Assembly: GCA_035389185.1 (NCBI GenBank)
Contig: DAOORK010000001.1
Coordinates: forward strand, 331,825 to 395,824
Origin: Candidatus Woesebacteria bacterium
GTDB lineage: Bacteria > Patescibacteriota > Microgenomatia > UBA1400 > MFAQ01
Length of the DNA: 64,000 bases
Direction: 5' to 3'
Within the stretch, counting starts at the first letter, position 1. Every line of letters begins with the position of its first letter. Made by a program: the position numbers and the translations under genes. Below the pieces are notes generated by a model, which saw nothing but the letters and a program-made list of their open reading frames with translations, was not told where the DNA came from and made no database searches. Below are positions 3,164-38,165 of the stretch, piece after piece.

Positions 3164-3182
3164 TTGTCTATCTTATCAATTA

Positions 3183-14000: not shown

Positions 14001-14200
14001 ACGGGATAAGCCGAATGAGTGGACTCTTGATACTGGAATCTAGGTAGATCCAGGGGTGTTTGATTTGGCTCTGACCAACCTTCATAACCTCTCACCGGAT
14101 TGGAAATAGTGACGAAGGCATTCTTTCCGAAAGCTAGTGTTGATTGAGGAAACAACAAAAGGATTAAGGGGACAAGTAGAGGAAGAAGTTTCTTAAACAT
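11006..14200 (-). CDS. Large fused envelope protein: signal peptide, ~500-aa extracytoplasmic domain, ~14-TM core and C-terminal domain (putative GT-C-like glycosyltransferase or polysaccharide polymerase)
   Basis: The ORF of up to 1096 aa probably starts at the internal Met (MFKKLLPLLVPLILLLFPQSTLAFG), which gives a classic signal peptide and avoids a 104-nt overlap with the flippase gene. The central region is very hydrophobic. A soluble C-terminal tail follows. Confidence 0.45.
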   Translation of the reverse strand: MFKKLLPLLVPLILLLFPQSTLAFGKNAFVTISNPVRGYEGWSEPNQTPLDLPRFQYQESTHSAYPVTWLLRFDAVSSATISAYFADLFETDKNQSLGAFLEITPSLTAQAGVVYPPGTYMSNPNRIFLSGYSQKDRLKLIDTYMKAFFDRFGFYPTAVSAWDLDSYSLQYLQTRYSILTAMNCDDQYSTDHYRIWGGYVGSPYYPDKNNSLIPAASAKNRINLIMVRWAQRDLYNFYGTAGAFSYSVQVNDYLSYGLDTTYFEKLLAQYTQKGFNELSHINLGLENDYSLDLYQKEISSTYRLLEKNREKYNLEYVSLAELGNIVKAYYPESSPTYFYRTLDSTNRENGEVFWYQSYRYRIGLKTANGQTQIIDFRVYNREIYEDYFAVPNQTTDLYSEIPAIIDSVKTPGSELTLNIDLSQFKTTYDKQWDLWQITLENGNQKIYLLPDSIKFVNIVAPVIESADIKILNNKQETTWQASPHTPLKDYAQYSWLFWVVIFFFLVLLIKKIIKKGKPKIPSTLLFGFLCAFIVCLTVFRNGLNFSFGQGYFGPNGHDAIFHLSLIEKFSQNPLDLSHPQYAGEKLTNYHFVFDYFSGLLSWFFNIPASTLYFRFLPILFCFALVFLLDRLMEKWHYSKTTKIFGFLLVFFAGSFGFIPKLLTSQNVFSGESSFWANQSASIFLNPPYALSLIFLLLFLLNLPSEGKIKALQFIKLALLGGLLAQTKIYAFVLLCLALLFTRRLSILIVVGIIGALITLPLSSFSGSPFIFDPLWFPRSLFASYDRFYWPKFVEAWQAYEASGNFLKLFAVNLFSVLAFLVGNLGMRIFGFFSIAKDKNTDISRKIVSVIIVLGIVLPLFITQKINPWNTIQFMYYSLFFLGLFTAEYLSRLLSRFRTKTIAVFVITLFLLVATFTSIGTLKDYLGNTSPSRVSYPEMKALDTLKSKEKGVVLSPIYVKADWVAGPKPLYAYVSSAYISALSGQPEFLSDTINLDITGFQYQSRIRDIQRFYNTKDKVWANNFLQKNNIKYVYETPLQKITLNPYDLSLTKIYDSGEIKVYQKK

Positions 14201-19626: not shown

Positions 19627-20163
19627 TTATTTGAAGACGGTGTCTCTGTAATATTTTAACTCATCGATTGATTCCAAAATATCATCGTGAGCCCGATGAG
19701 GTTCAACTTTAGAAAAAGGTTTGTTGTGAGGATACCAACGACCAGCAAGCTCTTTAATGGTAGAGACGTCAATAATACGATAGTGAACAAAATCAGCCAG
19801 CTTGGGCATCTGAATCCTAAGGAATTCCCGATCGATGTGGATAGAGTTGCCGGCAAAAAGAGCCGTGTTTTTGGGACAGTGTTTTTTGAGAAAAGAAAGA
19901 GTTTTTTCTTCTGCTTCGTCTGTGGATATTTTTGATTCATGAATTTCATTGAGAAGACCCGACTCGGCAAAATGTTCCTGGCACCAATCGTTAATTTTGT
20001 TCATCACTGAAGCCGGATGATGAATAACGATGTCTGGACCTTCGGCAACAACGTTTAGTTCGGCGTCGGAAATAATAGTCGCAATTTCAACAATTTTATC
20101 TTTTTCTGGATCAAGACCGGTCATCTCTAGATCAAGCCAGATGAGTTTACCGTTGGTAATCAT
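19627..20163 (-). CDS. orn: Oligoribonuclease (3'-5' exoribonuclease, DEDDh family)
   Basis: LIWLDLEMTGLDPEKDKIVEIA...HRAHDDILESIDELKYYR matches the Orn N-terminus and the DEDDh catalytic motifs. The start was moved to the internal Met (MITNGKLIW), consistent with Orn N-termini and with the upstream gene's stop at 20160. Confidence 0.85.
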   Translation of the reverse strand: MITNGKLIWLDLEMTGLDPEKDKIVEIATIISDAELNVVAEGPDIVIHHPASVMNKINDWCQEHFAESGLLNEIHESKISTDEAEEKTLSFLKKHCPKNTALFAGNSIHIDREFLRIQMPKLADFVHYRIIDVSTIKELAGRWYPHNKPFSKVEPHRAHDDILESIDELKYYRDTVFK

Positions 20164-21644
20164 TTGGAGTGAGCTAGTTGGTAGATTTTTAGATAATCGA
20201 TACTCCACTCGGAAACAATGTGTGATGGACCAAAGACCGCAATTTGCCATCCGGGGTTACCTTCAGGTTGGCATTTATCCCCATCTTCGCAGATTACAAA
20301 AAGCCAGTCGGTAATTCTCTCTTCCCCCCTAATGAGGTTGGCTTTTTTGTTTTCTAAGAAGTAACGATACGACTCGTCATAGTTTTGTTTGGCAATAAGA
20401 CCAAAATTGAAGGGCTCCCCTTTTGATTCTTTGATAATCAAGTCCGCAGCGGCTTCTGTACGTTGAAGCTGTCGATTGGGTTGGCCAAAGGTAGGACTAT
20501 ATCTTAAATTGACAAATAATAGGGCCAAAACAGTAAGAAGGGCTACGACTTTTAAGACAAAGCCTTTTCTGGAAAGGAAATAGCCGATTAGGGCACCGAG
20601 CAAAAGATACACTGCCGGGTAGATAAAGCCAAGGTAGTGAACATAAACATGCTGTTTGTAGATACTTAACCCAAAAATTCCGAAAGCAAGCCAGATATAA
20701 AGAAGCTTTAACTGGGGGCGCCATTTTGACTTGAAAAATATAAAAACGGACAATAAAAGAATTGCCACTGAGATAAGGGGAACACTAATATTCTGACGAG
20801 CCAGAACGAGATCGGTAACGGTGGTAATAATGACCGGAACAAAACGATCTGACTTGGTGGGATTGAGATTAACAGTGGTTTGACGATCGGTGAAGAATTT
20901 TTCGAAAGCGTGGAAATTCATACCTTGATGTTTGATATCAAAAAGAACAAGCGGTGACATAAGTACTAAAAACAAAGCAATGGCTAATAGGGTATTCTTG
21001 ACGAAATGTGAACGAAGAGTTTTGTCTTTTCTTATCCGGAGGAGAGAAATGAGCCAGAAAAAACCTAAAGTGGGAGCTAAAAGCAGACCGAGATAATGCA
21101 TTTGCAAAGCAAAGGCAAAAGAAACACCAACAATAGGCAACCAAAAATATTTTTTATTTTGCCAGACCTGATAGACTCCCCAAATACAAAGAAGGGCAAA
21201 AAGAGGCATAGGGTTGGGATTCCAAGAAGAGCGTGAATAAATTATGGCAACCGGAGAAACGGAGAATAAAGCCGCCGCAACCAAACCGGCACTTTTGTTG
21301 AACCAAGATCTACCAACAAACCAGGTAAGGCCGACGGTAAGAACTCCCAGTAGGGCAACCATAATAGCCGGACCGACTGGATTAAGATTAGACAAAAATA
21401 ACGCCGGGGCCATCATGTAGTAATAAAGCGGACCCAAGTACATGTTGCCAATACTAGTTTGAGGTCCGATGAAAACTAAGTTGCCTCTGGTAATAAGGTC
21501 ACGAACAATACGAACGTCGCGCCCTTCATCTCCCAAGAAAGTCATGAACTCACCAATGCGATATAGGCGCAAAAATAAGGCTAGACCAAGAATACCAATT
21601 AATATAAAGAACTCTAGACGATTTTTTTTGATCCAGTTGATCAT
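20160..21644 (-). CDS. GT-C fold membrane glycosyltransferase (GT39/GT83-like)
   Basis: 494 aa with the N-terminal loop FMTFLGDEGRDVRIVRDL (DE motif) and more than 10 TM helices. Confidence 0.65.
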   Translation of the reverse strand: MINWIKKNRLEFFILIGILGLALFLRLYRIGEFMTFLGDEGRDVRIVRDLITRGNLVFIGPQTSIGNMYLGPLYYYMMAPALFLSNLNPVGPAIMVALLGVLTVGLTWFVGRSWFNKSAGLVAAALFSVSPVAIIYSRSSWNPNPMPLFALLCIWGVYQVWQNKKYFWLPIVGVSFAFALQMHYLGLLLAPTLGFFWLISLLRIRKDKTLRSHFVKNTLLAIALFLVLMSPLVLFDIKHQGMNFHAFEKFFTDRQTTVNLNPTKSDRFVPVIITTVTDLVLARQNISVPLISVAILLLSVFIFFKSKWRPQLKLLYIWLAFGIFGLSIYKQHVYVHYLGFIYPAVYLLLGALIGYFLSRKGFVLKVVALLTVLALLFVNLRYSPTFGQPNRQLQRTEAAADLIIKESKGEPFNFGLIAKQNYDESYRYFLENKKANLIRGEERITDWLFVICEDGDKCQPEGNPGWQIAVFGPSHIVSEWSIDYLKIYQLAHSK

Positions 21645-25125: not shown

Positions 25126-25767
25126 TTGGGCTTGATGAAAATAGATATTTTGACTATATTTCCGGAAATGTTTGAGGGGGTTTTGGGGACTTCGATAATT
25201 GGTAGAGCTACGGGAACAGGTGTCGTGGAGATAAAGATTCATAACCTGCGAGACTGGAGCGATGATAATTATAAGAGTGTTGACGATAGACCTTTTGGCG
25301 GGGGTGCTGGCATGGTGATGAGAGTTGATGTAGTAGATAAAGCACTTAAAGACCTAAAAACTCCAGAGACAAAAGTGATACTTTTGGACACTAAGGGAGA
25401 AATGTATAACCAAAAAGCTGCCGAGACTCTTAAAAACGAGAAGCACCTGATTCTTATTTCTCCTCATTTTGAAGGAATTGACCACCGAGTCCATGAACAT
25501 CTAGCGGACAAAGTTTACTCGATTGGACCTTATGTTTTATCGGGAGGAGAGTTACCATCGATGGTCTTGGTTGACTCGATAGTGCGACTTTTACCGGGTG
25601 CTTTGGGAAACCCTCAATCACTTGCCGAGGAGTCGTATTCCGAAGAGTTTGAAACAGAGTACCCACAGTACACAAGGCCGGCTGAGTACAAAGATTGGAA
25701 AGTTCCGGAGATTCTACTTTCGGGTGATCACAAAAAAATCGCTGATTGGAGAAAAGGAAAGAAGTAA
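25126..25767 (+). CDS. trmD: tRNA (guanine37-N1)-methyltransferase
   Basis: 213 aa. MKIDILTIFPEMFEGVLGTSIIGRA... is the characteristic TrmD N-terminus and SPOUT fold. Confidence 0.85.
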   Translation: MGLMKIDILTIFPEMFEGVLGTSIIGRATGTGVVEIKIHNLRDWSDDNYKSVDDRPFGGGAGMVMRVDVVDKALKDLKTPETKVILLDTKGEMYNQKAAETLKNEKHLILISPHFEGIDHRVHEHLADKVYSIGPYVLSGGELPSMVLVDSIVRLLPGALGNPQSLAEESYSEEFETEYPQYTRPAEYKDWKVPEILLSGDHKKIADWRKGKK

Positions 25768-27674: not shown

Positions 27675-28437
27675 AATTTAAATCAATATCTATCAGTGAG
27701 TCCATCCACTTTAACTGTTGGGACTTAATTTTTTGGGCTGCTTCGGATTTTTCTGAAAAATAGTTCTCGCTTTCAATGTTGGCTAAATCCTCTTCAGAAA
27801 GAAGGGTGTTGGCCAGTTCGTCTATTGAAGCGTTGATACTTTTCCCAAGTTTTTGCAGATCCTCAATTTTTGTCTTTAAAGGAGTTGATATTGGTGTGGC
27901 AAGTTTTGGCAAAATAATATTAAGGGCGTTATCCATTTCTTGCTGGAAATGAACCAGTAAGGATAGTTTGTAAGCCACGACTCCAGCACGGGAACTGTGA
28001 TCGTGTTCGATAACGTTGGTGTTGTATTCTTGGGTAAAGTTTTTAAGATCGGCTGGGGTAGCAATTGATTGTGACTTTAGAGCTTCATTACTAAAAAAAT
28101 TCTTGGCCTTGGTGAGGGAGAAAATAATAGGGTCGATGTTTTTGTAATTTGCTTTAGTATTTTTTATCAGAGAAAGCAGGTACTCCGCGTAGTTTGATTT
28201 TGCCAGATCTCTGGCGGAAAGAGTTTCTTTGGCTGCCAAAATTGCTTTTTGCTGATTATCTAGTGTGGGGTTACTTATGTAATCGCTTTTAAGTAATTTG
28301 TATTCGATATATTTTCCTCGATAGAGACTATATTGATATTCGTAATCTGATTTGGCATCTGCCAAAACAGTCGTTGTCCCAAAACAAAAAAAGATAGATG
28401 GTAGTATAAGCAAAAGCAGCTTTGAAAAAAGCTTCAT
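27661..28437 (-). CDS. Hypothetical secreted protein
   Basis: 258 aa with a signal peptide (MKLFSKLLLLILPSIFFCFGTTTVLA) and helical composition. Confidence 0.4.
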   Translation of the reverse strand: MKLFSKLLLLILPSIFFCFGTTTVLADAKSDYEYQYSLYRGKYIEYKLLKSDYISNPTLDNQQKAILAAKETLSARDLAKSNYAEYLLSLIKNTKANYKNIDPIIFSLTKAKNFFSNEALKSQSIATPADLKNFTQEYNTNVIEHDHSSRAGVVAYKLSLLVHFQQEMDNALNIILPKLATPISTPLKTKIEDLQKLGKSINASIDELANTLLSEEDLANIESENYFSEKSEAAQKIKSQQLKWMDSLIDIDLNYAHS

Positions 28438-29333
28438 TACTTTAAGGATAACCCCTGACCGATAAGTATTTCAACCACAGTCTGCCAAGCAGAAAAATGA
28501 AGACCCAATTTTTTCTCGGTAGCAACTGTTTTTAGACCGCCAAAAACCGGGTAACGGCTTTTGTTGGTTTGGGTTGCTAGAAAGGTATGGATCGAAGAAG
28601 ATTTGATGACTGAAGGATCACCCCCAAGCTGATCGACCACGTAGGTAATTAATTCAAAGGGAGTTGTGGTATCGGAGCAACAGTGGAAGATACCAGTTTT
28701 TTCTGTATCGATAATTTTTTCCAGTGTCTGGGCAACTTCATCGATGAAGGCAATACAGATTTGCTGGTCATTGAACAGAGGATACATAGTTCCATCGACA
28801 TATTTTTTGACTGCGCCACGAATATAGTCTAGCTTGGCGTCAAACTGGGCACGGACGGGATAAATGATGCGAAGAATTGTACCTCCGTGGTTGAGGACCA
28901 CTTTTTCGGCACGATTTTTGGTCCAACCATACCAAGTGAGATTTTCGGGCGAGTCGGGAGTTTTATCGGTTTCAGAATAAGGACCGGGGTGTTCAACACT
29001 GCCAGGGAAAACCATGTCGGTACTGATGTGAATAATTTTTTTGGAAGGAAAAGCATTGACGAGATTTTCGGTACCTTCAACATTAATTTTCCAAGCGGGG
29101 CCAGTGTTATCCCCTGTTTGAGTTTCTGCGGCATTGACGTCGGTAAAAGCGGCAAAGTTTACAATCCATTCGGGATTAAACTTGTCAATGGCATTTTTAA
29201 CTGAGCTCGGGTCGGTAAGGTCAAATTCCGGATATTCGGGAGTGAAAAAATCGTATTTATTCTGGGCAAGTTCGATAAAGCGAGAACCAACAAGTCCTGA
29301 GGCTCCGGTGACTAAAACTTTTATTTTGTTCAT
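28437..29333 (-). CDS. rfbD: dTDP-4-dehydrorhamnose reductase
   Basis: 298 aa with KVLVTGASGLVGSRF, an NAD(P)-binding Rossmann fold and an HISTDMVF motif. It sits in an rfbABCD cluster. Confidence 0.75.
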   Translation of the reverse strand: MNKIKVLVTGASGLVGSRFIELAQNKYDFFTPEYPEFDLTDPSSVKNAIDKFNPEWIVNFAAFTDVNAAETQTGDNTGPAWKINVEGTENLVNAFPSKKIIHISTDMVFPGSVEHPGPYSETDKTPDSPENLTWYGWTKNRAEKVVLNHGGTILRIIYPVRAQFDAKLDYIRGAVKKYVDGTMYPLFNDQQICIAFIDEVAQTLEKIIDTEKTGIFHCCSDTTTPFELITYVVDQLGGDPSVIKSSSIHTFLATQTNKSRYPVFGGLKTVATEKKLGLHFSAWQTVVEILIGQGLSLK

Positions 29334-29336
29334 AGA

Positions 29337-29900
29337 TTACATCGTTTCCGGTTTGACAAAATCAAAGGAGACTTTTGCCGGATCGATTCGGCATTCTTGA
29401 GTGTCTTCGGTAGCTACAAAGAATTTATCGGTGAAGTAATTGAGAGTGACAGGAGTTGTTGAGGGATTGATAAAGCCGTGGGCTAAGCCGGCAGGAATGT
29501 AAACAAGTTTTTCGGAAGATAGAACGATTTTCATCTGTTTGCCGTAGGTTGGAGAACCGGTACGAAAATCAATTAGACCGAGAAGGATAGTGCCGTTGGT
29601 CGTCCAGATCTCATTCTGGACTGGATGAATATGCCAAAACCGTTGGGTGTAGGGAGCAAGATAAGACATATTACCCTGAACCGGCTTGAACTCAATACCA
29701 AGTTCTTTGAGAGCAAGATTGTTACCTTTTTCGTCGAGTCTGAGGGTTTCTTTGAACCAACCGCCAAAATCATCAGCGAAGGTGTTTAGTTTAAGAATTT
29801 GAACGCCATCAATCATGTCAGCTTTTTCGTAAGTCTGGCAAAAAAGATTGCTGTCTTGAGGAAGAGTAATGTTTTGATATTTTATTGGTTTAAATCCCAT
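29337..29900 (-). CDS. rfbC: dTDP-4-dehydrorhamnose 3,5-epimerase
   Basis: 187 aa with a cupin fold and DDFGGWFKETLR-type RmlC motifs, in the rfb operon. Confidence 0.75.
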   Translation of the reverse strand: MGFKPIKYQNITLPQDSNLFCQTYEKADMIDGVQILKLNTFADDFGGWFKETLRLDEKGNNLALKELGIEFKPVQGNMSYLAPYTQRFWHIHPVQNEIWTTNGTILLGLIDFRTGSPTYGKQMKIVLSSEKLVYIPAGLAHGFINPSTTPVTLNYFTDKFFVATEDTQECRIDPAKVSFDFVKPETM

Positions 29901-29909
29901 TTTGTTTAA

Positions 29910-30908
29910 TTATTTTTTATAAATAGATTCCGATTTTTCTTTAAGAGGCTTCCACCATGCCTCATTTTCTTTATACCACTCGACTGTCTTCTGAAGCCAT
30001 GTGTCGAAGTCGTATTGGGGAGCCCAACCGAGGTCCTTATTAATCTTGGTCCAGTCGACGGCGTAACGGCGGTCGTGACCGGGACGGTCGGTGACAAATT
30101 CGATTTTTTCATCGGGATTCATGCCAAGAAGTGAGATAACCTTCTGAGCGATTTCAAGATTATTTATATCTTCGGTCATACCACCAACACAGTAGGTTGA
30201 ACCGGGTGCGGCGTTGTGAAATACCATATCAATAGCACGGCAATGATCGAGGACATGAAGCCAGTCACGAACATATTTTCCATCACCGTATACTTTGACC
30301 TTTTCACCTGTTAACAAATTGGTGATCATACGAGGCATAAACTTTTCAGGATCTTGGAATGGGCCAAAGTTATTACTGCAGTTAGTGATCGTTACAGGGA
30401 CCCCAAAAGTATCGAAATAAGACCTCACGAGATGGTCTGAAGCGGCTTTGGATGCTGAGTAAGGGCTGTGAGGTTCATAACGAGTTTCTTCGTTGAATTT
30501 ATCTTGGCTATCTAGCGGTAAAGCTCCAAAAACCTCGTCGGTTGAAACATGATGAAACTTTTTGATGCCGTATTTCTTGGCTGCCTCGAGAAGAATTTGG
30601 GTACCGATAATGTTGGTTTTGGTAAAAACAAGGGGATCAAGAATTGAACGGTCAACGTGAGACTCGGCGGCAAAATGGATAATAGCCTCTACTTGAGAGA
30701 CAACTTTGTCGACAGCTACAACATCGGTAATATCCCCTTTCACAAAAGTGTAATGAGGATTATTTTCAACACTTTTGAGAGATTCGAGGTGACCGGCATA
30801 GGTTAGGAGATCAAAGTTTATGATTTCATCTTCAGGATATTTTGCCAGCCAGTATTGGACAAAGTTGGATCCGATAAAACCTGCTCCTCCAGTGACGAGT
30901 ATCTTCAT
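29910..30908 (-). CDS. rfbB: dTDP-glucose 4,6-dehydratase
   Basis: 332 aa with MKILVTGGAGFIGSNFV and a YxxxK catalytic motif (YSASKAASDHLVRSY). Confidence 0.85.
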   Translation of the reverse strand: MKILVTGGAGFIGSNFVQYWLAKYPEDEIINFDLLTYAGHLESLKSVENNPHYTFVKGDITDVVAVDKVVSQVEAIIHFAAESHVDRSILDPLVFTKTNIIGTQILLEAAKKYGIKKFHHVSTDEVFGALPLDSQDKFNEETRYEPHSPYSASKAASDHLVRSYFDTFGVPVTITNCSNNFGPFQDPEKFMPRMITNLLTGEKVKVYGDGKYVRDWLHVLDHCRAIDMVFHNAAPGSTYCVGGMTEDINNLEIAQKVISLLGMNPDEKIEFVTDRPGHDRRYAVDWTKINKDLGWAPQYDFDTWLQKTVEWYKENEAWWKPLKEKSESIYKK

Positions 30909-31991
30909 TTAGAATGTTATTTTACTTAATTCACCGACTAAGACTTCGACCTTGTTCTCAGAACGGGGGTTTTGAGATAGATGAGTACTGGGGCCGATGA
31001 TACTGTCATCGATGTTCTTCTTTATCTTATCAATAATAACGCCTTCCATCAGAACTGAGTCGGTAATGGTTGAGCCGATGACGGTACAGTTGTGATAAAT
31101 AGAGGTAAAAGGACCGATATTGGCGTCGTTGATGATACAGTTGTCACCAATATTGACCGGACCTTTGATAACAGTGTTTTTGATCTCACAGTTCTTGCCG
31201 ACAACGACACGACCGTGAATTTTGACGGTGTCGTCAAGCTTGGAATCGATATTGGTTTTGGTGTTGGCGTCCAAAAGGAACATATTGGCTTCCAACCAGT
31301 CATCAACTTTGCCCGGGTCAAGCCATTCGCCTTTGATTTCGAGAGTGTCGACGCGTTCACCATGGTCAATTAACCACTGAAAGGCTGCGGCAATCTCTAG
31401 TTCTCCTCTTTCCGAAGGTACTATTTTGTCTTTGCCTTTGAAACAATCAAAGATCATATTGTCGAAGAAGTAGACACCAGGGATGGCATAGTCGTGGGGA
31501 GGGTTGGCTGGCTTCTCAACATATTTGATCAATCTGCCTTTTTCATCAAAATAAGGGACACCCAAACGAGTGTTTTCGGGGTGATGGACAATACCGACCA
31601 AACCCTTGGGGCGATGAGTGTTGAAGTGATCGACTAAATTTTCTATTCCTCCATTAAAAATGTTATCTCCGAGGTGAAGAATGAAAGAATCTCCATCAAT
31701 GAAGTCTTCACAGACTTGAAAAATGTTGGCTAAACCTCCAACTGGATTTTCCTGAAGAACATAAGTAAATTTGGCTCCCCATTTTGAGCCATCTCCTAAA
31801 ACAGATTGAACTAACTCTAAACCTCCTGGGTTATAAGTAAAGGCAATTTCTTTTACTCCAGCCTCAAGAACAGCTTCGATGGGATAAAAGATAAGAGGTT
31901 TGTTCCCCACGGGAATCAAGTGCTTATTAGCAGAAAAAGTTAGAGGTCTCATTCTGGTGCCTCTTCCACCGGTTGGGATAATTGCTTTCAT
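30909..31991 (-). CDS. rfbA: Glucose-1-phosphate thymidylyltransferase (long form with C-terminal left-handed beta-helix)
   Basis: 360 aa. MKAIIPTGGRGTRMRPLT is the nucleotidyltransferase signature. The C-terminal hexapeptide-repeat region resembles the ~355-aa RmlA long forms. Confidence 0.75.
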   Translation of the reverse strand: MKAIIPTGGRGTRMRPLTFSANKHLIPVGNKPLIFYPIEAVLEAGVKEIAFTYNPGGLELVQSVLGDGSKWGAKFTYVLQENPVGGLANIFQVCEDFIDGDSFILHLGDNIFNGGIENLVDHFNTHRPKGLVGIVHHPENTRLGVPYFDEKGRLIKYVEKPANPPHDYAIPGVYFFDNMIFDCFKGKDKIVPSERGELEIAAAFQWLIDHGERVDTLEIKGEWLDPGKVDDWLEANMFLLDANTKTNIDSKLDDTVKIHGRVVVGKNCEIKNTVIKGPVNIGDNCIINDANIGPFTSIYHNCTVIGSTITDSVLMEGVIIDKIKKNIDDSIIGPSTHLSQNPRSENKVEVLVGELSKITF

Positions 31992-32022: not shown

Positions 32023-32277
32023 TTACTTTAATAAACCTATAGTTATTATACACCCTAAAAGGGCAAATAGCACGTATTCTAAGACTATTCGTGCATGAAG
32101 TGACTTTTCTTTTGAGTGATGAATGATGGCCCATACTATATATAGTATGGAGTAGCCGATGATGGTAATTTCCTGGTAAAACTTATTTCCATTGAAGTAA
32201 AGAACTGCAATAATGGCAATTGAAGTAAGGATTGCAAGTAAAAGATAGTCTAGGATACTTCTGATCGGTTTTTTCAT
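32023..32277 (-). CDS. Small membrane protein (2 TM)
   Basis: 84 aa, hydrophobic, overlaps the upstream gene's stop. Confidence 0.35.
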   Translation of the reverse strand: MKKPIRSILDYLLLAILTSIAIIAVLYFNGNKFYQEITIIGYSILYIVWAIIHHSKEKSLHARIVLEYVLFALLGCIITIGLLK

Positions 32278-33152
32278 AAGACAATTCCCTGACGGATAAT
32301 AAGAATGATGATGGCAATGCCGGCGAAGTAGGTTAGATGGGCCCAGTTTTTGCCAGAAATACGAATGATGTTGTAGCGAAGAACAAAGAGCCAGTCAAGA
32401 CTGAGAGCAAAGAGAATCAGAATCACAAAGGCCAAAGACCAGGCACGAGAAAGATCCAAAGGAGACAAAACAGACTGTTCGGTGATTGAAGCCGTTTGTA
32501 GCGTGGTATCTGCGATGGTTTGAGTGGTGACAGTATCTTCGGCATAGGCAGTATTAGTTATTTTGGACGAGGCAATTTGGGAGACTGAAGTTTGGGTTGA
32601 ACCAAACATTTGAACTACAAGAGTGGTTTCGACTCCATTAATGGTCCCGTCGACAACGGCAACGCCAATATCTTGGTAACGACCATCAAGAAGATTTTGC
32701 TTGTGGGTTGGCGAAGCCATCCAAGCCCTGACAACATCGGTAGGATTACTAAAATCACGAGCCAGATTTTCCCCGGCGTGTTGGTAACTATAGCCTGAGC
32801 TGTTGATAAAGTACCATGGCTCTGTACCTGTAGGTGAGATGTGAGCCCAGTAATCATGCTCAAACATATCCATGGCTTTGGCGAGGGCGGCTTGGTCCAG
32901 CTGGGCATTTTCTTTTAGGATAGAAAGTCCTGCATTAAGACGTTCGCTATTGGTCAGCTCGATGATTTTGTCCGGATCGATTTGAGAAGCGTAGCCTAAA
33001 ACTCCAGGTTGTAACCCGACAGTAATGTCGATGATAGAACGGCCCATGATAAAAAGACCGATCAAAACAACAATTGATTTTGGCCAAAGAACTTTGGCTT
33101 TATGGTTGTTGTGAGGATGAGGTGCGAAAAGGCTTATGAAGGCGTTGGCCAT
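32274..33152 (-). CDS. CAP/SCP (PR-1-like, YkwD-like) domain protein with C-terminal membrane anchor
   Basis: 292 aa. ELTNSERLNAGL...HDYWAHISPTG...HAGENLARDF...RAWMASPTHKQNLLDGRYQDIGVAV matches CAP-domain motifs. A C-terminal hydrophobic segment follows. Confidence 0.6.
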   Translation of the reverse strand: MANAFISLFAPHPHNNHKAKVLWPKSIVVLIGLFIMGRSIIDITVGLQPGVLGYASQIDPDKIIELTNSERLNAGLSILKENAQLDQAALAKAMDMFEHDYWAHISPTGTEPWYFINSSGYSYQHAGENLARDFSNPTDVVRAWMASPTHKQNLLDGRYQDIGVAVVDGTINGVETTLVVQMFGSTQTSVSQIASSKITNTAYAEDTVTTQTIADTTLQTASITEQSVLSPLDLSRAWSLAFVILILFALSLDWLFVLRYNIIRISGKNWAHLTYFAGIAIIILIIRQGIVL

Positions 33153-33186: not shown

Positions 33187-33762
33187 TTACAATAACCCTG
33201 TTGCGGTGATAACCAAACGCTTGATATCCGTGCCGGGAGGATAACAGGTCATAAGAGTAAGAGTTTTCCCCTGTTTGCTGTTTGCCAAAGACGAGAGATT
33301 CTGAGGGTCAACAATCTCTTTTTTGACGGTCTGGTAGGTATATTTCTGGCCGTGGTAATAAAGAATTACTTCGTCTCCCATTTCGAGCTTGGTGAGCAGA
33401 TAAAAGATGGAGTTGTAACGAGTAGCCAAAAAGAAATCCTCTGATGAGTGAGAAAAAATAAACACATTCCCCTCTTCATCGGGAAGGGCTGAACCTTGCG
33501 CATGGGCAACTCCTTGGGTAAGAGCTTTTTGATAGACTTGAGCGTTGAAGGGATCAACATTGGCAATGACTTTAGCATTGATACCCAACTTGGGAATAAT
33601 AATGCCAAAGTCGGTACTTAGGGGTAGGATTTCTTTTGTCTCAGGTGGTTTGGTCTGGTGGAGTTGATAGATAACCTCGTTTTGGGCAATAGGGAAAAAA
33701 GTCATCACAACAACGGAAATAGCACCCAATACCAATAAAAAACCAAGTATTTTTTTTATCAC
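33187..33762 (-). CDS. Sortase family transpeptidase
   Basis: 191 aa with an N-terminal TM anchor, His in GNVFIFSHSS, catalytic Cys in TLTLMTCYP (TLxTC) and conserved Arg in IKRLVITA. Confidence 0.75.
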   Translation of the reverse strand: MIKKILGFLLVLGAISVVVMTFFPIAQNEVIYQLHQTKPPETKEILPLSTDFGIIIPKLGINAKVIANVDPFNAQVYQKALTQGVAHAQGSALPDEEGNVFIFSHSSEDFFLATRYNSIFYLLTKLEMGDEVILYYHGQKYTYQTVKKEIVDPQNLSSLANSKQGKTLTLMTCYPPGTDIKRLVITATGLL

Positions 33763-33769
33763 AAGACTA

Positions 33770-34699
33770 TTATGAACGTTTTCTGGCTTTTCTGAAGAAA
33801 TAGGCCGAAAGAAGAAGCAGAGGAATGGCTAGCCATTTTAGATTCTTCAATTTATCGGTGCTGATACCGAGGACTGCAGAAGATGAAGCGGACTGAGATT
33901 CGCTGGGGGAAACTGAAACATTAGCTGTCGGTTCTTCTGCTGTGCTGACACCAGCGGCTACTTGAGATCCTGATGTGACAGGAATGGCTGTCTGAGAATT
34001 AATTGTCGTGGTAGTTCCGGTAGTAATTACTGTGGTGAAACTGTCGCCGACAATTCCGGAAACGTTTCCATAGTTATCAACAGCTCTTATCGCGTAAAAG
34101 TACTCTTTACCGCAAGTGGGAATACTGTTAGTGATTTCACCGGTTGTGTCTGGAACAATTGACTGGGAAGAAATAAAATGATCCGAATTAATACTGATGG
34201 AATTTGTGTCAGACCTATAAAGCTCAATTTTAGTTGTTCTTCCGTCGTTGGCTGTTTTGAATTTTATTTTGTAATCACAGTCATTAATTTTTTCTTTCGA
34301 GTAGGAAACAGGAGCACTTGGACCGGAGGTATTAAAATCAATGGAGACAATATTACTTTCTTTGACGCCATTGGCAACCACCTTAAAAGAATAAGCACCG
34401 ATTGTATTTAAAATGGTGTTATCGACGCTGCAGTAGTCGGTATTTCCACCAGGAATCAAGGAAATATCTTGGAACTTAACATAGTCACTGTCTGAAGGAG
34501 ACTTTTTGAAACAACTGACGGCGATATTGTCTGTTCCGCCAATTTCGAGAGCCACAAAAGTAAGCTTTAAATTACTTTGATTGGTAGGTGTCTTGGGCTG
34601 ACCCAATCTAACCGTAAGTGCGTTGGCTGCTTGGGAAGTGATCGGGAAACTCAAAGCGATAGCGCAGAAACTAGCGAGAACAAATATTTTTAATTTCAT
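33770..34699 (-). CDS. Secreted Ig/FN3-like surface protein with C-terminal TM anchor and basic tail (no canonical LPXTG)
   Basis: 309 aa with a signal peptide and beta-rich repeats. The C-terminus ...LKNLKWLAIPLLLLSAYFFRKARKRS resembles a sorting-signal architecture. It lies immediately downstream of the sortase. Confidence 0.45.
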   Translation of the reverse strand: MKLKIFVLASFCAIALSFPITSQAANALTVRLGQPKTPTNQSNLKLTFVALEIGGTDNIAVSCFKKSPSDSDYVKFQDISLIPGGNTDYCSVDNTILNTIGAYSFKVVANGVKESNIVSIDFNTSGPSAPVSYSKEKINDCDYKIKFKTANDGRTTKIELYRSDTNSISINSDHFISSQSIVPDTTGEITNSIPTCGKEYFYAIRAVDNYGNVSGIVGDSFTTVITTGTTTTINSQTAIPVTSGSQVAAGVSTAEEPTANVSVSPSESQSASSSAVLGISTDKLKNLKWLAIPLLLLSAYFFRKARKRS

Positions 34700-37293
34700 T
34701 TACTTTTGGATGATCTTAGTAATTTAATACCCATCGTGAGACCAATCATGGCGAGAATTATCCAGTAAGTGGAAGCACCTGTAGCGGGTAGAGTTGTCGT
34801 TGCGCCGAGGACTTCTCCAATTTTAGTTTCTTTCTTTTCAACGTCGTAGGTATCATCTTTTGTCTGCGATTTGACGACGTTGACTTCTGTACCAACGAAG
34901 TTTTCGGCAATGAATTTTGAATCAACACCTGAAGCATAGATGTCTTCATTAGCAACGGCCCAAGCAAGGTCGGTATAAAGACCAGGGTCTTGGGATGAAC
35001 TGATGTCGGCGGTATAGGTAAGAATTACATCAGCGCCTTCCGGGACATCACCAAGGCTCCAAGTTCCTGGTGAGTGATATGTTGGTTCAGAAATAGTGAC
35101 TGGAAGACCATTTACTGTGGCATGATATGAACCTATACGGTAGACAAAGCCTGAAGGCAATAAATCTTCGACTGTCAAACTATTGGCTTGGGCAGACGAG
35201 ACGTGGAGTTTGATAATGAAGTTTACAGAACTACCAGGAGTTTTGTCAGTTGAGGCATCGTTGGACTTACTAATAGTGAGTGTGGGGTTGTATTCACACG
35301 CTTCTTCATCACTGTAGGTAGTTGATGTCACCTCTTCATAATTATTGGCTGTTTCATCAGTACACACCGGAGTTTTGTCGTGACACTCGTTGTCGTTGCC
35401 AAGGTACTGTATCTCTGTACAATCTGGGGTAGGTTCAACACAGTGATTATTTAGAGTCGGTTGATCACCGTAGGCAGAGATTGCATCACCATTTTTGGCA
35501 GTGAAAGCCGGCCAGATGTCGTCCGAGTGACCGCCATGGCCACTAAGCCAATCTATGGCTGAAGCGACTGAGTTTATGGAAACGTCCTGTTCATTGTAGT
35601 CGTGACTGGAGTTTTCACTGGTGGCATGACAGATTGTGACTTTGCTTTCAGTTTGACAACTTGAATCACAGCCGTCGCCATCAATTACGTTTCCGTCGTC
35701 ACAGTATTCCTCTGATTGAATATAGCCGTCGCCAGATGAAGCAATTTCGCAGGCATTTGTACATGAATCAGTGTTTACAGTATTACCGTCATCACATGAC
35801 TCATCACCTTGAGCAAAACCATCACCACAGACTATGGCGTCACAAGCATTGCCGATACCATCGCCATCATCGTCTTGCTGGTTTGAGTTGGCAACGCTGG
35901 CACAGTTGTCACAAACATTGCCTAACATATCGTTGTCGGAATCACTCTGATCTGGATTGGCGGTTGAACGACAGTTATCACACACATCGCCGATACCGTC
36001 AGAATCAGAGTCTGATTGATCTGAGTTGGCAACGCTGGCACAGTTGTCATCACTGTCACAGATACCATCCTCATCGCGATCATTACAAGGAGGAGTGTAA
36101 GTATTGGTGAAAGTACAAACAACCGATTCGTTGGCCTTGAGAACAATGGAGATATTGGGGGAAGCGTTTTTATTCCAACTGGAACTGGAGTTTGCTCCAG
36201 TACAGGAGACACCGGTGAGAGCCCAACCAGAAGCAGGGGCGTCTTCAGTGAAGGTATAAGTACCTGTAGCTATATCACTGAATGTTTGTGAACCGGTATT
36301 GCTTGAAGTTGTGATCGTAAAAGGGGAGATACCGCCGGTTGCGGTAATTCCGAAAGAACCATCGGAATCGACAGTGTTTTTAATTATTTTTATTGAACCT
36401 TTTGGAGATGAAATGGTAATGGTATCTGAACAAGTATTATTTGATTCGTCTCCTTCGATTATGTTGTTTCCTGAATCAACGTTACAGACGCCGCCGGTTT
36501 TGGGGTTTGTATACATGCCTGAGGCGGTAGCTGTGACATTGAAAGATACCGTGAGATAACTCGATGGATTGAAGACCACATGTTTGTCGTTTTTGACCTT
36601 ACAGGTAAGGACTTTTGAACTAATGGAGCAAATCAAATCATTTTCGTGATCGATGTTGTTGTGGACAGAAATATATGGTGTTCCATATGTGAGACCACTG
36701 ATTGGTAGTTCATCGGTAATAACGACTTCATTCTCGTTAAAACGGGCGTCTGCTGATCCAATATTAGTTACTTTTAGACTCCAGATAAAGGTTTGATTAA
36801 TAGAACCTGTTGAACTTACTAGATTATTTGTTTTTTCAATCTTTAGGTCGCTTGGAGCTTTGCATCCGTTTGCCAAGAAAGCCTGATTGTAAGTTGTGTC
36901 GTAATTTTTACCAGGATATGAACAAGAACCATAAGTGTAGCTTGGAATAATGTCATCATCATGAGTTCCATGACCATTGACACTTTCACATTTTGAAATC
37001 GAGTTAATACTTACTGGGTTTTCTGTATATTTTCCACCTTGCCCTTCGTCCCAGTGGCAGATAGTGATATTTGTATTGGGAATTGATGGAGTATCAGTAA
37101 AAGTAGTGGAGGCAACAGTGGTATCTGTGGAATCAGTAACAACGATAGCATAGTCTGGGCGGTATTCTCCAAGAAGAGGAAGGAAGTACATGAATGAACC
37201 AGCTTCGTCAGTAACCACATTTTCGGCATTGGAATAGTTATCGGTTTCGGAAGTTACTGTGGAAGTGTAAGGGGTGTTGGCAAGAAAAAACAT
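34696..37293 (-). CDS. LPXTG-anchored cell-surface protein with thrombospondin type 3-like Ca-binding Cys/Asp repeats (main ORF; the N-terminus is separated by a frameshift)
   Basis: 865 aa. The C-terminal LPATGASTYWIILAMIGLTMGIKLLRSSKSK is an LPXTG motif followed by a TM helix and a basic tail. Internal repeats DSDDNCASVANSDQSDSDSDGIGDVCDNC... and CDDGN Cys-rich repeats are present. There is no signal peptide at the listed Met. The frame stays open upstream to 37575. Confidence 0.75.
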   Translation of the reverse strand: MFFLANTPYTSTVTSETDNYSNAENVVTDEAGSFMYFLPLLGEYRPDYAIVVTDSTDTTVASTTFTDTPSIPNTNITICHWDEGQGGKYTENPVSINSISKCESVNGHGTHDDDIIPSYTYGSCSYPGKNYDTTYNQAFLANGCKAPSDLKIEKTNNLVSSTGSINQTFIWSLKVTNIGSADARFNENEVVITDELPISGLTYGTPYISVHNNIDHENDLICSISSKVLTCKVKNDKHVVFNPSSYLTVSFNVTATASGMYTNPKTGGVCNVDSGNNIIEGDESNNTCSDTITISSPKGSIKIIKNTVDSDGSFGITATGGISPFTITTSSNTGSQTFSDIATGTYTFTEDAPASGWALTGVSCTGANSSSSWNKNASPNISIVLKANESVVCTFTNTYTPPCNDRDEDGICDSDDNCASVANSDQSDSDSDGIGDVCDNCRSTANPDQSDSDNDMLGNVCDNCASVANSNQQDDDGDGIGNACDAIVCGDGFAQGDESCDDGNTVNTDSCTNACEIASSGDGYIQSEEYCDDGNVIDGDGCDSSCQTESKVTICHATSENSSHDYNEQDVSINSVASAIDWLSGHGGHSDDIWPAFTAKNGDAISAYGDQPTLNNHCVEPTPDCTEIQYLGNDNECHDKTPVCTDETANNYEEVTSTTYSDEEACEYNPTLTISKSNDASTDKTPGSSVNFIIKLHVSSAQANSLTVEDLLPSGFVYRIGSYHATVNGLPVTISEPTYHSPGTWSLGDVPEGADVILTYTADISSSQDPGLYTDLAWAVANEDIYASGVDSKFIAENFVGTEVNVVKSQTKDDTYDVEKKETKIGEVLGATTTLPATGASTYWIILAMIGLTMGIKLLRSSKSK

Positions 37294-37400
37294 ACCGGCT
37301 ATCTGAACCGTGTCGGTCGGAGCATAGTCGGCTTTGTCTGTGGTGACAGTTGGCTCGTTGGATGTATTTTCTGCGGGAGGAGAGTTGTTTTTAACTTCTT

Positions 37401-37636
37401 CCGGAGTTGGTTCTACTGTTGGGGTAGCTTCGGGGGTTATCTCGGGAGTAATTTCCGGAGTTATCTCAGGTGTTACTTCGGGAGTTGGAGAAACCTCGGG
37501 AGTTGGATCAATTGTAGGAGTAGCTTCCGGAGTTATTTCCGGAGTTGGTTCTACTGTTGGGGTAGCTTCGGGGGGTTATCTCGGGAGTAATTTCCGGAGT
37601 TATCTCAGGTGTCACTTCGGGAGTTGGAGAAACCTC
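37401..37636. repeat. Imperfect tandem direct repeat (two ~97-bp copies, period ~138 bp) encoding a TPE[IV]TPE repeat; copy 2 carries G6 where copy 1 has G5
   Basis: Copy 1 (37401..37497) and copy 2 (37539..37636) are identical by direct comparison except for one extra G (37570..37575 versus 37432..37436) and a T/C change. Confidence 0.8.
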
Positions 37637-37765
37637 AACTACAGCCGCAGGTGTGGCGTCTTCGGCATACACCGGTAGTGCAACAAAAAATGGGGTAAAA
37701 GATTGAAAGAGAAGACTAAAAGAAGAAATAAACGAAAATATTTTCCTTACTTTATGGTGCTTCAT
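37508..37765 (-). CDS. Signal-peptide-bearing N-terminal fragment of the LPXTG surface protein (out of frame with the main ORF)
   Basis: 85 aa. MKHHKVRKIFSFISSFSLLFQSFTPFFVALPVYA is a signal peptide, followed by TPEVTPEITPEITPEITP. The frame leaves the repeat exactly at the G6 tract; removing one G fuses it in-frame to the 865-aa ORF. Confidence 0.65.
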   Translation of the reverse strand: MKHHKVRKIFSFISSFSLLFQSFTPFFVALPVYAEDATPAAVVEVSPTPEVTPEITPEITPEITPRSYPNSRTNSGNNSGSYSYN

Positions 37766-37841
37766 TTGTTTTTTGGCATTAATACCTATTCAGCTTATAT
37801 TAAGCTATCTGAGGCGTATTGTACTGTTTAATACAGTTTTG

Positions 37842-38165
37842 TCAACAGGGTCTTTTTGTGATAGATGGAGGTGAAGAATAGATGGGTTCGACAGGGGTGG
37901 CAGAACCGTTTACATCGATATCCAGAGCGAGACTTAAAGCATTTGCTATTGAGACACCGACACGAGTACCGGTAAAAGATCCGGGGCCAGGATTGACTTC
38001 AATATCGGTGATGTCTTCCGGCTTTTTGTTTTCTTTTTCGAGACAACCGACCAGAAAACCAAAAACGTCTTGATCTCGTGGTGAGTCGACTTTTCTCACG
38101 TACTCTCGATCGTTTATACGGATAATTGTTTGAGTATTTTGGGTTGAGTCAATATAGAGTTTCAT
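37842..38165 (-). CDS. tsaB: tRNA threonylcarbamoyladenosine biosynthesis protein TsaB (short form)
   Basis: 107 aa. A conserved GPGSFTGTRVGVSIANALS motif (YeaZ/TsaB N-domain) is present. It lies adjacent to tsaE. Confidence 0.6.
   Translation of the reverse strand: MKLYIDSTQNTQTIIRINDREYVRKVDSPRDQDVFGFLVGCLEKENKKPEDITDIEVNPGPGSFTGTRVGVSIANALSLALDIDVNGSATPVEPIYSSPPSITKRPC

What the first reader, a model, noticed from the sequence alone, without database searches (positions are those of the whole stretch)
34696..37765. LPXTG surface protein split from its signal peptide by a +1 G in a tandem repeat
The 865-aa LPATG protein has no signal peptide at its annotated Met, but its frame is open upstream to 37575 and encodes a (TPE[IV]) repeat. 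An 85-aa ORF starting at 37765 encodes a textbook signal peptide followed by the same TPEVTPEITPEITP repeat. It leaves frame exactly where repeat copy 2 has GGGGGG (37570-37575) instead of GGGGG in copy 1 (37432-37436). Removing one G yields a single ~1020-aa secreted, sortase-anchored protein. This is either an on/off phase-variable adhesin, a recent pseudogenisation, or a sequencing error in a repeat.
Basis: seen in the sequence. Interest (0 to 1): 0.7.

Follow-up and report, generated by a model that had tools for sequence, protein, structure and literature searches.

The report
Frameshift-split sortase-anchored surface protein gene
One extra base in a short run of G's cuts the export signal off a large cell-wall-anchored surface protein gene of an uncultivated ultrasmall (CPR/Microgenomates) bacterium, which is most likely an ordinary recent knock-out mutation (or, less likely, an assembly error) rather than a new kind of switch.

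Summary
On the minus strand, an 85-aa ORF (37765..37508: signal peptide plus TPE-rich linker) and the 865-aa LPATG ORF (37293..34696, frame open up to 37575) are two halves of one gene. They are separated by one extra G at 37570-37575 (G6). The sister copy of a lineage-specific ~105-nt tandem duplication has G5 at 37432-37436. Deleting one G gives a 1022-aa protein.

About 90 relatives, including syntenic orthologues (TsaE-TsaB-[surface protein]-309-aa protein-sortase-CAP), encode signal peptide, linker and N-terminal domain in one frame. The annotated Met lies inside a predicted beta-strand.

The window is otherwise 96% coding with no other split gene, so it is not an assembly full of homopolymer errors. 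The same G6 is present in two public assemblies (six contigs carry the 865-aa product), but these are 100% identical and may share reads. No intact allele is in the databases.

The tract is too short, and not conserved, for a classical phase-variation locus. No relative shares the frameshift, which argues against programmed recoding. The site ACC-CCC-CGA is nevertheless a known +1-slippery CCC-CG motif, so low-level leak is possible.

Verdict: an ordinary, recent frameshift allele of a known kind of gene. Reads are needed to exclude an artefact or a mixed population.

The parts
37818..37845 (-). Best sigma-70-like promoter match of the region (TTGACA-16-TACAAT, 11/12). It lies in the 3' end of, and just after, the TsaB-like gene, about 50 nt upstream of the 85-aa ORF start.
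37664..37765 (-). True start codon and Sec-type signal peptide: MKHHKVRK n-region, a 23-aa hydrophobic core, and VYA|ED as the likely cleavage site. It is conserved in orthologues (PVYAED).
   Evidence: No signal-peptide predictor was available, so this rests on sequence features and conservation.
37508..37765 (-). 85-aa ORF, the orphaned 5' part of the gene. It holds the signal peptide and the first TPE repeats, then 20 out-of-frame codons and a TGA.
37537..37642 (-). Upstream copy (in gene orientation) of the ~105-nt tandem duplication in the Pro/Thr/Glu linker. It carries the extra base.
37570..37575 (-). Frameshift site: G6 on the + strand, C6 on the coding strand, read as ACC-CCC-CGA. One base too many compared with the sister copy. 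It is also a CCC-CG +1-slippery motif.
37399..37503 (-). Downstream copy of the duplication, in frame, with G5 at 37432-37436 (ACC-CCC-GAA = T-P-E).
34696..37575 (-). Body of the gene: a 959-codon open frame without a usable start until Met95 (37293). Contents in order: rest of the linker, N-terminal beta-sandwich, two ICH..GHG..DIIP modules, CARDB-like and SpaA_4 prealbumin-like domains, TSP3 and DUF4215 Cys-rich repeats, CLIPPER/DUF11-like domain, sorting signal.
34696..37293 (-). 865-aa ORF as called in public records (HOX96147.1, 'DUF4215 domain-containing protein'). Its Met is an internal conserved residue (QIAGMFFLAN) inside predicted strand 89-95 of the first domain.
34699..34791 (-). 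C-terminal sorting signal: LPATG (34777-34791), hydrophobic ASTYWIILAMIGLTMGI, basic tail KLLRSSKSK.
33770..34699 (-). Conserved 309-aa partner gene with a signal peptide and a C-terminal TM helix plus basic tail. Its start overlaps the stop of the surface-protein gene (ATGA), so it is probably translationally coupled.
33187..33762 (-). Sortase (PF04203 E=4e-24; TIGR01076 61 bits against a cut-off of 39). The subclass is not resolved.
32274..33152 (-). CAP/YkwD-family secreted protein, the conserved last member of the syntenic block.
37842..38165 (-). Short TsaB-like gene, the conserved upstream neighbour. The 76-nt gap to the 85-aa ORF start equals the gap to the intact orthologue start in L007.

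Best explanation
This is one gene for a Sec-exported, sortase-anchored, modular surface protein made of a stalk of Ig-like domains, like a fibrillar adhesin or pilin. It belongs to a Microgenomates (Woesebacteria/Collierbacteria-related) CPR bacterium.

In this lineage a ~105-nt piece of the Pro/Thr/Glu-rich linker was recently duplicated in tandem. One copy then gained a C in a C5 run on the coding strand (ACC-CCC-GAA became ACC-CCC-CGA-A).

As written, the allele is off. Ribosomes starting at the native ATG (37765) make an 85-aa signal-peptide fragment and stop at 37508. The 959-codon body has no signal peptide and no natural start. Premature termination probably also weakens the translationally coupled 309-aa gene downstream.

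The lesion is young, because there is no second defect. I take it to be a real mutation in the sampled population, that is, a recent pseudogene or null allele. At most about 1% full-length product could arise through spontaneous +1 slippage of peptidyl-tRNA-Pro on CCC-CG.

Shown: the gene structure, the single-base cause, the intact state in relatives, and the absence of further lesions. Inferred: that the base is real in the cells, the polar effect, the leak, and the adhesin role.
For: - Sequence and repair.
- Homologues P0002-P0006 and P0019 have signal peptide, linker and TTDKADYAPTDTVQIAGMFFLANTPY in one ORF.
- The synteny VanZ-TsaE-TsaB-[1613 or 1173 aa intact protein]-309/306 aa-sortase-CAP is identical in L003-L007. 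Flanking proteins are 52-83% identical over their full length.
- Census: 80 of 81 relatives whose match spans signal peptide to N-domain are continuous in one frame. Most partial matches also have the signal peptide in frame.
- Promoter-like TTGACA-16-TACAAT sits upstream of the 85-aa ORF.
- The AF2 model places the annotated Met inside beta-strand 89-95 of a confident N-terminal beta-sandwich.
- Fold hits are to the sortase-assembled pilins SpaD, EbpC and T6, and to a CLIPPER adhesin domain.
- The window is 96% coding. 37294-37841 is the only long stretch on that strand without a full-length gene. The six other G/C runs of 6 or more and more than 200 A/T runs of 6 or more sit in intact ORFs.
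- G6 is identical in GCA_029561095.1 and JGI 3300010355, and six contigs carry the 865-aa product.
- No 1022-aa allele was found among 5.8 billion proteins.
- Other family members also carry sporadic inactivating lesions: L073 has a CAA>TAA nonsense mutation and L084 lacks a signal peptide.
Against: - No reads were available.
- The public assemblies that share G6 are 100% identical over 20.9 kb, so they may derive from one read set. They are not independent confirmation.
- The lesion sits in a near-identical tandem repeat, where assemblers are most likely to mis-thread a minor variant.
- The body ORF is perfectly intact over 959 codons. That also fits an artefact, or an allele that is still in use.
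Confidence: 0.58

Rival explanations
1. Assembly or consensus artefact. The genome really has C5 in both repeat copies and the gene is intact. The extra base would come from a minor variant or a systematic error that was threaded into one copy of the two-copy repeat.
For: - The lesion is a single-base homopolymer length change inside a ~105-nt repeat that is 99% identical to its sister copy.
- A Logan k=31 contig of run SRR4244858 breaks exactly at the repeat (L111 starts at window 37428), which shows the graph branches here.
- The body ORF has no other defect.
- The assemblies sharing G6 are identical over 20.9 kb and may share reads.
Against: - The rest of the window shows no sign of homopolymer errors.
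- Contigs of 443-905 kb imply high coverage, where a wrong consensus at a 6-mer is unusual for short reads (inference).
- Assemblies with different contig boundaries (538 kb and 443 kb shown, 905 kb on record) give the same base.
- Reads of 100 nt or more span the 78 nt needed to assign the run to its copy.
Confidence: 0.17
2. Reversible ON/OFF phase variation. Slipped-strand mispairing in the C5/C6 run would toggle expression of the surface protein within the population, and the assembly caught the OFF state.
For: - The location is typical for contingency genes: a G/C homopolymer in the 5' coding part of a surface protein, between the signal peptide and the mature part.
- The body is intact.
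- Orthologues have swapped their whole central region while keeping both ends, as expected for a surface protein under diversifying pressure.
Against: - The tract is only 5/6 nt, whereas known homopolymer switches usually have 7 or more (own knowledge).
- It is not a conserved feature. The duplication and the run at this place are lineage-specific, and 80 of 81 relatives are simply in frame.
- C5 runs are common by-products of ACC/GCC/TCC+CCC codons in these linkers: 38 in 40.6 kb.
- No ON allele appears in any database.
- G/C runs of 6 or more are not enriched in the window: 7 in 64 kb, six of them inside other intact ORFs.
Confidence: 0.12
3. Recoding. Full-length protein would be made on purpose from the C6 template, either by +1 ribosomal frameshifting of tRNA-Pro on CCC-CGA or by transcriptional slippage in the C run, setting a low expression level.
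For: - ACC-CCC-CGA contains the CCC-CG motif shown to be +1-slippery in E. coli, with up to about 1% shifting at a second-codon CCC-C (PMC4519876).
- A +1 slip gives exactly ...EITPEATP..., the sequence of the sister copy.
- CGA is read through an inefficient I:A wobble (own knowledge).
Against: - The frameshift is not conserved in any relative.
- There is no Shine-Dalgarno-like stimulator upstream.
- CGA is not rare here: 5.0 per 1000, against 1.9 for CGG and 2.7 for AGG.
- There is no significant RNA structure around the site (z = -1.9).
- trmD, whose m1G37 product suppresses this slip, is present at 25126-25767.
- Six C's are short for RNA-polymerase slippage (own knowledge).
Confidence: 0.05
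4. Two separate genes: a small secreted peptide gene and an independent 865-aa cytoplasmic or otherwise exported protein.
For: Public annotation calls only the 865-aa ORF.
Against: - The Met is an internal conserved residue inside a beta-strand.
- An LPXTG substrate needs Sec export.
- About 90 relatives have a single ORF.
- The 85-aa product is not called as a gene in the collection searched.
- The ORF leaves the conserved TPE register exactly at the extra base.
Confidence: 0.02

Closest known systems
Sortase-anchored LPXTG fibrillar adhesins and pilins of Gram-positive bacteria (e.g. SpaD, EbpC, T6, Cna-B/SpaA-domain proteins)
   Same: - N-terminal Sec signal (after repair).
- A string of Ig-like/prealbumin beta-sandwich domains.
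- C-terminal LPATG, hydrophobic stretch and basic tail, with an adjacent sortase gene.
- Foldseek hits to pilins and a CLIPPER adhesin domain.
- Sortase is reported as near-ubiquitous in Microgenomates (PMC6744442).
   Different: - The host is an uncultivated CPR bacterium.
- The domain mix includes TSP3 and DUF4215 Cys-rich repeats and two ICH..GHG..DIIP modules with no Pfam or NCBIfam match in these scans.
- Global TM-scores are low (0.1-0.3), so the similarity is at fold-class level only.
- Pilin polymerisation motifs were not examined.
- The gene is frameshifted here.
Homopolymer-tract contingency (phase-variable) surface genes, e.g. poly-G/C tracts in Neisseria, Campylobacter and Helicobacter, and the 7C tract of M. 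tuberculosis glpK (own knowledge)
   Same: A +/-1 change in a G/C run in the 5' coding region of a surface protein gene decides whether the mature protein is made.
   Different: - The run is only 5/6 nt.
- It is not conserved in relatives.
- No length polymorphism was observed.
- C5 runs are generic in these Pro/Thr linkers.
CCC-C(G) +1-frameshift-prone sites read by tRNA-Pro, and programmed +1 frameshifting as in prfB
   Same: The P-site codon CCC is followed by C. Re-pairing in the +1 frame is isoenergetic and would restore the ORF.
   Different: - No conservation.
- No stop or rare A-site codon.
- No SD-like stimulator.
- TrmD is present.
Homopolymer frameshifts in reduced symbiont genomes rescued by transcriptional slippage (poly-A tracts in Buchnera/Blochmannia; own knowledge)
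   Same: A small-genome, probably host-dependent bacterium carries a homopolymer frameshift in an otherwise intact gene.
   Different: The tracts there are A runs of about 9 or more. Here the run is C6, and rescue is untested.

Membership tests
LPXTG sortase-substrate surface protein | C-terminal sorting signal: LPXTG, hydrophobic segment, positively charged tail | tested here: met
   LPATG-ASTYWIILAMIGLTMGI-KLLRSSKSK at 34699-34791. LPATG is nearly invariant in the alignment of 13 homologues.
LPXTG sortase-substrate surface protein | N-terminal Sec signal peptide on the same polypeptide | tested here: not met
   In the sequence as given, the signal peptide is on a separate 85-aa ORF. The feature is met only after removing one G, and it is met in about 90 relatives.
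LPXTG sortase-substrate surface protein | A sortase encoded in the genome | tested here: met
   ORF 33187-33762: PF04203 E=4e-24; TIGR01076 61.4 bits against a cut-off of 39.35.
LPXTG sortase-substrate surface protein | Covalent attachment to peptidoglycan, or polymerisation into pili | not testable with these tools
   Needs biochemistry. Sortase subclass models (C, D, E) all score below their cut-offs.
Simple-sequence-repeat phase-variable (contingency) locus | Hypermutable repeat tract of a length known to switch (homopolymer usually 7 nt or more) | tested here: not met
   The tract is 6 nt, and the ON state would be 5 nt.
Simple-sequence-repeat phase-variable (contingency) locus | Tract-length polymorphism among reads, strains or samples | tested here: inconclusive
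   Every database instance has G6, but the assemblies are identical and may share reads.
Simple-sequence-repeat phase-variable (contingency) locus | Tract maintained at the same place in related genomes | tested here: not met
   The duplication and the run are specific to this lineage. Relatives are in frame, with ordinary codon-derived C5 runs.
Programmed +1 ribosomal frameshift | Frameshift conserved among orthologues | tested here: not met
   80 of 81 spanning relatives are in a single frame, and the exception is a nonsense codon.
Programmed +1 ribosomal frameshift | Slippery P-site codon able to re-pair in the +1 frame | tested here: met
   CCC-C in ACC-CCC-CGA. The motif is described in PMC4519876.
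Programmed +1 ribosomal frameshift | Slow A-site (stop or rare codon) and/or an upstream SD-like stimulator | tested here: not met
   CGA occurs at 5.0 per 1000 and is not the rarest Arg codon. There is no GGAGG-like element in the 20 nt upstream. The RNA fold z-score is -1.9.
Recent pseudogene / null allele | Disrupted relative to intact syntenic orthologues | tested here: met
Recent pseudogene / null allele | Lesion real and fixed in the population | not testable with these tools
   Needs read mapping. Indirect evidence only, from the assemblies.

The most novel reading that the evidence does not exclude
The C5/C6 run in a freshly duplicated linker may be a working reversible switch. Alternatively, through CCC-CG +1 slippage, it may act as a fixed low-level expression valve. 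Either way it would control the main sortase-anchored, probably host-contact, surface protein of an uncultivated Microgenomates bacterium. That would be the first documented phase-variable or recoded surface protein in the CPR.
Probability: 0.1. Interest if true: 0.55.

Novelty: new member of a known kind. Interest (0 to 1): 0.22.

Why it matters
- **Annotation.** The public 865-aa 'DUF4215 domain-containing protein' (HOX96147.1) is the 3' part of a frameshifted 1022-aa LPXTG protein. It should be flagged as such rather than treated as a cytoplasmic protein.
- **CPR biology.** The locus is a conserved module: a large variable LPXTG protein, a 309-aa partner, a sortase and a CAP protein, next to tsaE/tsaB and a glycosylation cluster. 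The central part of the large protein is exchanged between relatives, which makes it a good candidate for a host-contact structure.
- **If the null allele is real.** A null allele in an abundant population would say that the protein is dispensable or counter-selected in that habitat.

None of this is surprising to a specialist.

Tried and rejected
- **Scans for other run lengths.** An exact-pattern scan allowing C4-C7 at the site found nothing in metagenome contigs or genome contigs. The pattern works on the window, so those collections simply do not hold this genome. No ON allele could be looked for there.
- **Look-up of the 85-aa product.** It is not on record.
- **Provenance or platform.** A paper search for JAKQJP, 3300010355, GCA_029561095 and Ga0116242 gave no hits.
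- **Independent samples.** I tried to expose them via the neighbouring 309-aa protein. This gave only a Logan contig (SRR4244858) that breaks at the repeat and does not reach the G6.
- **First census attempt.** A motif-based census of relatives missed half the loci. It was replaced by a census based on tblastn match coordinates.
- **L008's apparent 502-aa truncation.** This was rejected as biology, because the contig ends in Illumina adapter.
- **53-sequence alignment.** It failed, so a 13-sequence alignment was used. This left the Cys-rich middle (residues 497-761) at low confidence.
- **RNA structure near the site.** Not significant.
- **Shine-Dalgarno as a test of the true start.** Rejected, because only 10 of 52 genes have an SD-like motif.

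Full report
**Observation**

Reading the minus strand of 34500-38100, listing ORFs and translating all frames confirm every coordinate in the finding.
- ORF 37765..37508 (85 aa) begins MKHHKVRKIFSFISSFSLLFQSFTPFFVALPVYA|EDATPAAVVEVSPTPEVTPEITPEITPEITP. This has a basic n-region, a long hydrophobic core and a VYA|ED cleavage-type site. It then reads RSYPNSRTNSGNNSGSYSYN and stops.
- The 865-aa ORF 37293..34696 ends in LPATG-ASTYWIILAMIGLTMGI-KLLRSSKSK. Its frame is open upstream to 37575, directly after a TAA at 37578-37576.
- Repeat finding shows two copies, 37399-37503 and 37537-37642. They differ by one synonymous substitution (37474 T / 37613 C) and one base of run length: G5 at 37432-37436 against G6 at 37570-37575.
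- Start-to-start spacing changes from 138 to 139 nt across the run.
- Removing one G gives a single 1022-aa ORF with only the terminal stop.

**One gene, not two**

It also found more distant relatives.
- P0006 (Collierbacteria GW2011_GWC2_45_15, 1613 aa), P0002, P0003, P0004, P0005 and P0019 all carry one polypeptide. It holds a near-identical signal peptide (…LPVYAEDATPAAVVDVSPTP…), a P/T/E linker and the domain TVTTDKADYAPTDTVQIAGMFFLANTPYTSTVTS.
- The 'start' Met of the 865-aa ORF is therefore an internal conserved residue.
- In an AlphaFold model of the 959-residue open frame (13-sequence alignment), this Met (residue 95) lies in strand 89-95 of a confident beta-sandwich (residues ~73-161, pLDDT 75-90). 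The 865-aa product would lack the first strands of its first domain.
- The best sigma-70-like match of the region (TTGACA-16-TACAAT, 11/12) lies at 37845-37818, just upstream of the 85-aa ORF.

**Synteny**

The genes around P0006 and P0002 follow the window's order: FtsE-FtsX-peptidase-…-VanZ-TsaE-short TsaB-[surface protein]-309/306-aa protein. In the P0006 loci the sortase, CAP protein, 84-aa protein and rhamnose-pathway genes follow as well; the P0002 contig ends inside the gene after the 306-aa one.
- Flanking proteins are 52-83% identical over their full length.
- The surface protein keeps only its first ~226 residues (66% identity) and last ~200 residues (45% identity). The middle is replaced, giving 1022, 1613 and 1173 aa.
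- In L007 the intact gene starts 76 nt after tsaB. That is the same gap as between tsaB (end 37842) and the 85-aa ORF start (37765).

**Census of relatives**

Protein-pattern scans of genome and metagenome contigs gave 101 loci.
- Of 81 loci whose match runs from residue 11 or earlier to residue 205 or later, 80 are one frame without a stop.
- Most loci with partial matches also have the signal peptide in the same ORF.
- The exceptions are informative but different in kind. L073 has CAA>TAA inside the conserved YSYQLDGNYRPNY. L084 runs from a promoter-like element straight into the linker without a start or signal peptide.
- L008's apparent stop is Illumina adapter at the contig end.
- The frameshift is therefore unique to this genome, and sporadic inactivation of this gene occurs elsewhere in the family.

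**What the protein is**

- Pfam and NCBIfam find SpaA_4 (E=4e-14), DUF4215/'cysteine-rich acidic repeat', TSP3-like repeats and a weak CARDB match.
- The model shows a chain of beta-sandwich domains.
- Foldseek's best PDB hits include the sortase-assembled pilins SpaD, EbpC, T6, PilB and EbpB, and a CLIPPER adhesin domain (TM 0.77 on the target). Global TM-scores are low.
- The neighbouring 191-aa ORF is a sortase.
- The LPATG gene is the only ORF in the window with a sorting motif near its C-terminus.
- Sortase is reported as near-ubiquitous in Microgenomates (PMC6744442).
- The adhesin or host-contact role is inferred, not shown.

**Real base or artefact?**

Evidence that the window is not a noisy assembly:
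- It is about 96% coding.
- The only long stretch without a full-length gene on its strand is 37294-37841.
- Six other G/C runs of 6 or more, and more than 200 A/T runs of 6 or more, leave their genes intact.

Evidence from other assemblies:
- The G6 is present in GCA_029561095.1 (538-kb contig) and in JGI 3300010355 (443-kb contig). Six contigs in all carry the 865-aa product.
- No 1022-aa allele exists among 5.8 billion proteins.
- These assemblies are identical over 20.9 kb, so they may come from the same reads.

Limits of the evidence:
- A Logan contig of SRR4244858 is 100% identical to window 37428-32282. It begins one base after the last 31-mer shared by the two copies, as expected if both copies exist in the reads, but it does not reach the run.
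- Exact-pattern scans for other run lengths found nothing, because the searchable collections lack this genome.
- I therefore rate an artefact at about 0.17.

**Switch or recoding?**

Against a dedicated switch:
- The tract is short (5/6 nt) and lineage-specific.
- C5 runs are frequent by-products of ACC/GCC/TCC+CCC codons in these linkers. There are 38 in 40.6 kb of orthologous linker DNA, with C6 and C7 in frame at SPP/APP.
- There is no sign of a dedicated hypermutable tract.

On recoding:
- The site reads ACC-CCC-CGA. CCC-CG is a documented +1-slippery sequence for tRNA-Pro, with up to ~1% shifting at a second-codon CCC-C in E. coli, and the slip is suppressed by m1G37 (PMC4519876).
- A +1 slip would give exactly the in-frame sequence of the sister copy.
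- Against a programmed event: no relative shares the shift. CGA is not rare at 5.0 per 1000. There is no SD-like stimulator. The local RNA fold is unremarkable at z = -1.9. trmD is present at 25126-25767.
- A small unprogrammed leak is plausible. A designed mechanism is not supported.

**Mechanism proposed**

- The gene is transcribed from the promoter at ~37845-37818.
- Translation from 37765 yields a signal-peptide fragment that terminates at 37508.
- The body is not exported or made, except through rare +1 slippage or reversion to C5.
- The 309-aa gene overlaps the body's stop codon (ATGA), so it may also be under-translated (inference).
- The absence of any second lesion in 959 codons dates the event as recent.

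**Verdict**

The finding is real as a sequence feature and correctly interpreted. It is an ordinary kind of event: a single-base homopolymer frameshift in a surface-protein gene of a metagenome-assembled genome. Its cause can be settled only with reads. Interest is low (0.22). The most novel reading still open is a working switch or recoding in a CPR surface protein, which I put at about 0.1.

Noticed in passing
window 34696-37765 versus L003 4998-9839 and L007 6001-9522: Syntenic orthologues of the surface protein keep the N-terminal ~226 aa (66% identity) and the C-terminal ~200 aa (45% identity). The whole central region is exchanged, giving 1022, 1613 and 1173 aa. Flanking genes are 52-83% identical over their full length. 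This looks like cassette-like diversification of a surface protein.
   Followed up: partly
L073 about 3150-3300 (Ga0116202_10012214): A relative of the same gene has an in-frame TAA in place of the conserved Gln in YSYQLDGNYRPNY (CAA>TAA). This is an independent inactivating lesion.
   Followed up: partly
L084 about 2400-2520 (Ga0075668_102): This relative has no start codon or signal peptide. A promoter-like TTGACA…GATATAAT is followed directly by the P/T-rich linker in frame. It is either a 5' deletion or an unusual start.
   Followed up: no
L008 4507-4556 (CAISER010000031.1, Collierbacteria LaPlata_bin-1578): The deposited contig ends in Illumina adapter sequence (AGATCGGAAGAGCGTCGTGTAGGGAAAGAGTGT). 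This creates a false stop in the closest orthologue (73% identity at the N-terminus).
   Followed up: yes
window 36856-37071 and about 35450-35640 (minus strand): Two copies of a Cys/His module are present: 'ICH(W/A)…NP…(N)GHG.H.DDI(I/W)P'. It is conserved in relatives as ICHATDSQTNPY…GGH..H…GDIIPPF. No Pfam or NCBIfam model matched it in these scans, so its fold and function are uncharacterised.
   Followed up: no
window 8312-9862(+), 15649-17361(-), 17361-18875(-), 20160-21644(-), 14193-15677(-), 28437-31991(-): The window holds four PMT_2-family glycosyltransferases, a polysaccharide flippase and dTDP-rhamnose-pathway genes within 30 kb of the surface-protein operon. The Thr/Pro-rich linker could be an O-glycosylation substrate, but this is speculation.
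   Followed up: no
window 33770-34699 (minus strand): The conserved 309-aa partner protein has a signal peptide, a Ser/Thr-rich region and a C-terminal TM helix with a basic tail. The tail is preceded by AVLGIST (compare VLGATTTLPATG in the big protein), but there is no LPXTG. It has no family match. It may be a non-canonical sortase substrate or a membrane anchor.
   Followed up: no
window 37842-38165 (minus strand): The TsaB-like gene is only 107 aa, about half the usual length (it matches TIGR03725 positions 2-90 of 212). The same short form (108 aa) is conserved in relatives.
   Followed up: no
window 9837-9843: This G7 run is the longest G/C homopolymer in the window. It lies 20 nt before the stop of a PMT_2 glycosyltransferase ORF, and the ORF looks full-length (516 aa).
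   Followed up: partly
window-wide: Shine-Dalgarno-like 4-mers occur upstream of only 10 of 52 genes. A-rich leaders are common, so start-site calls in this genome cannot lean on an RBS.
   Followed up: partly
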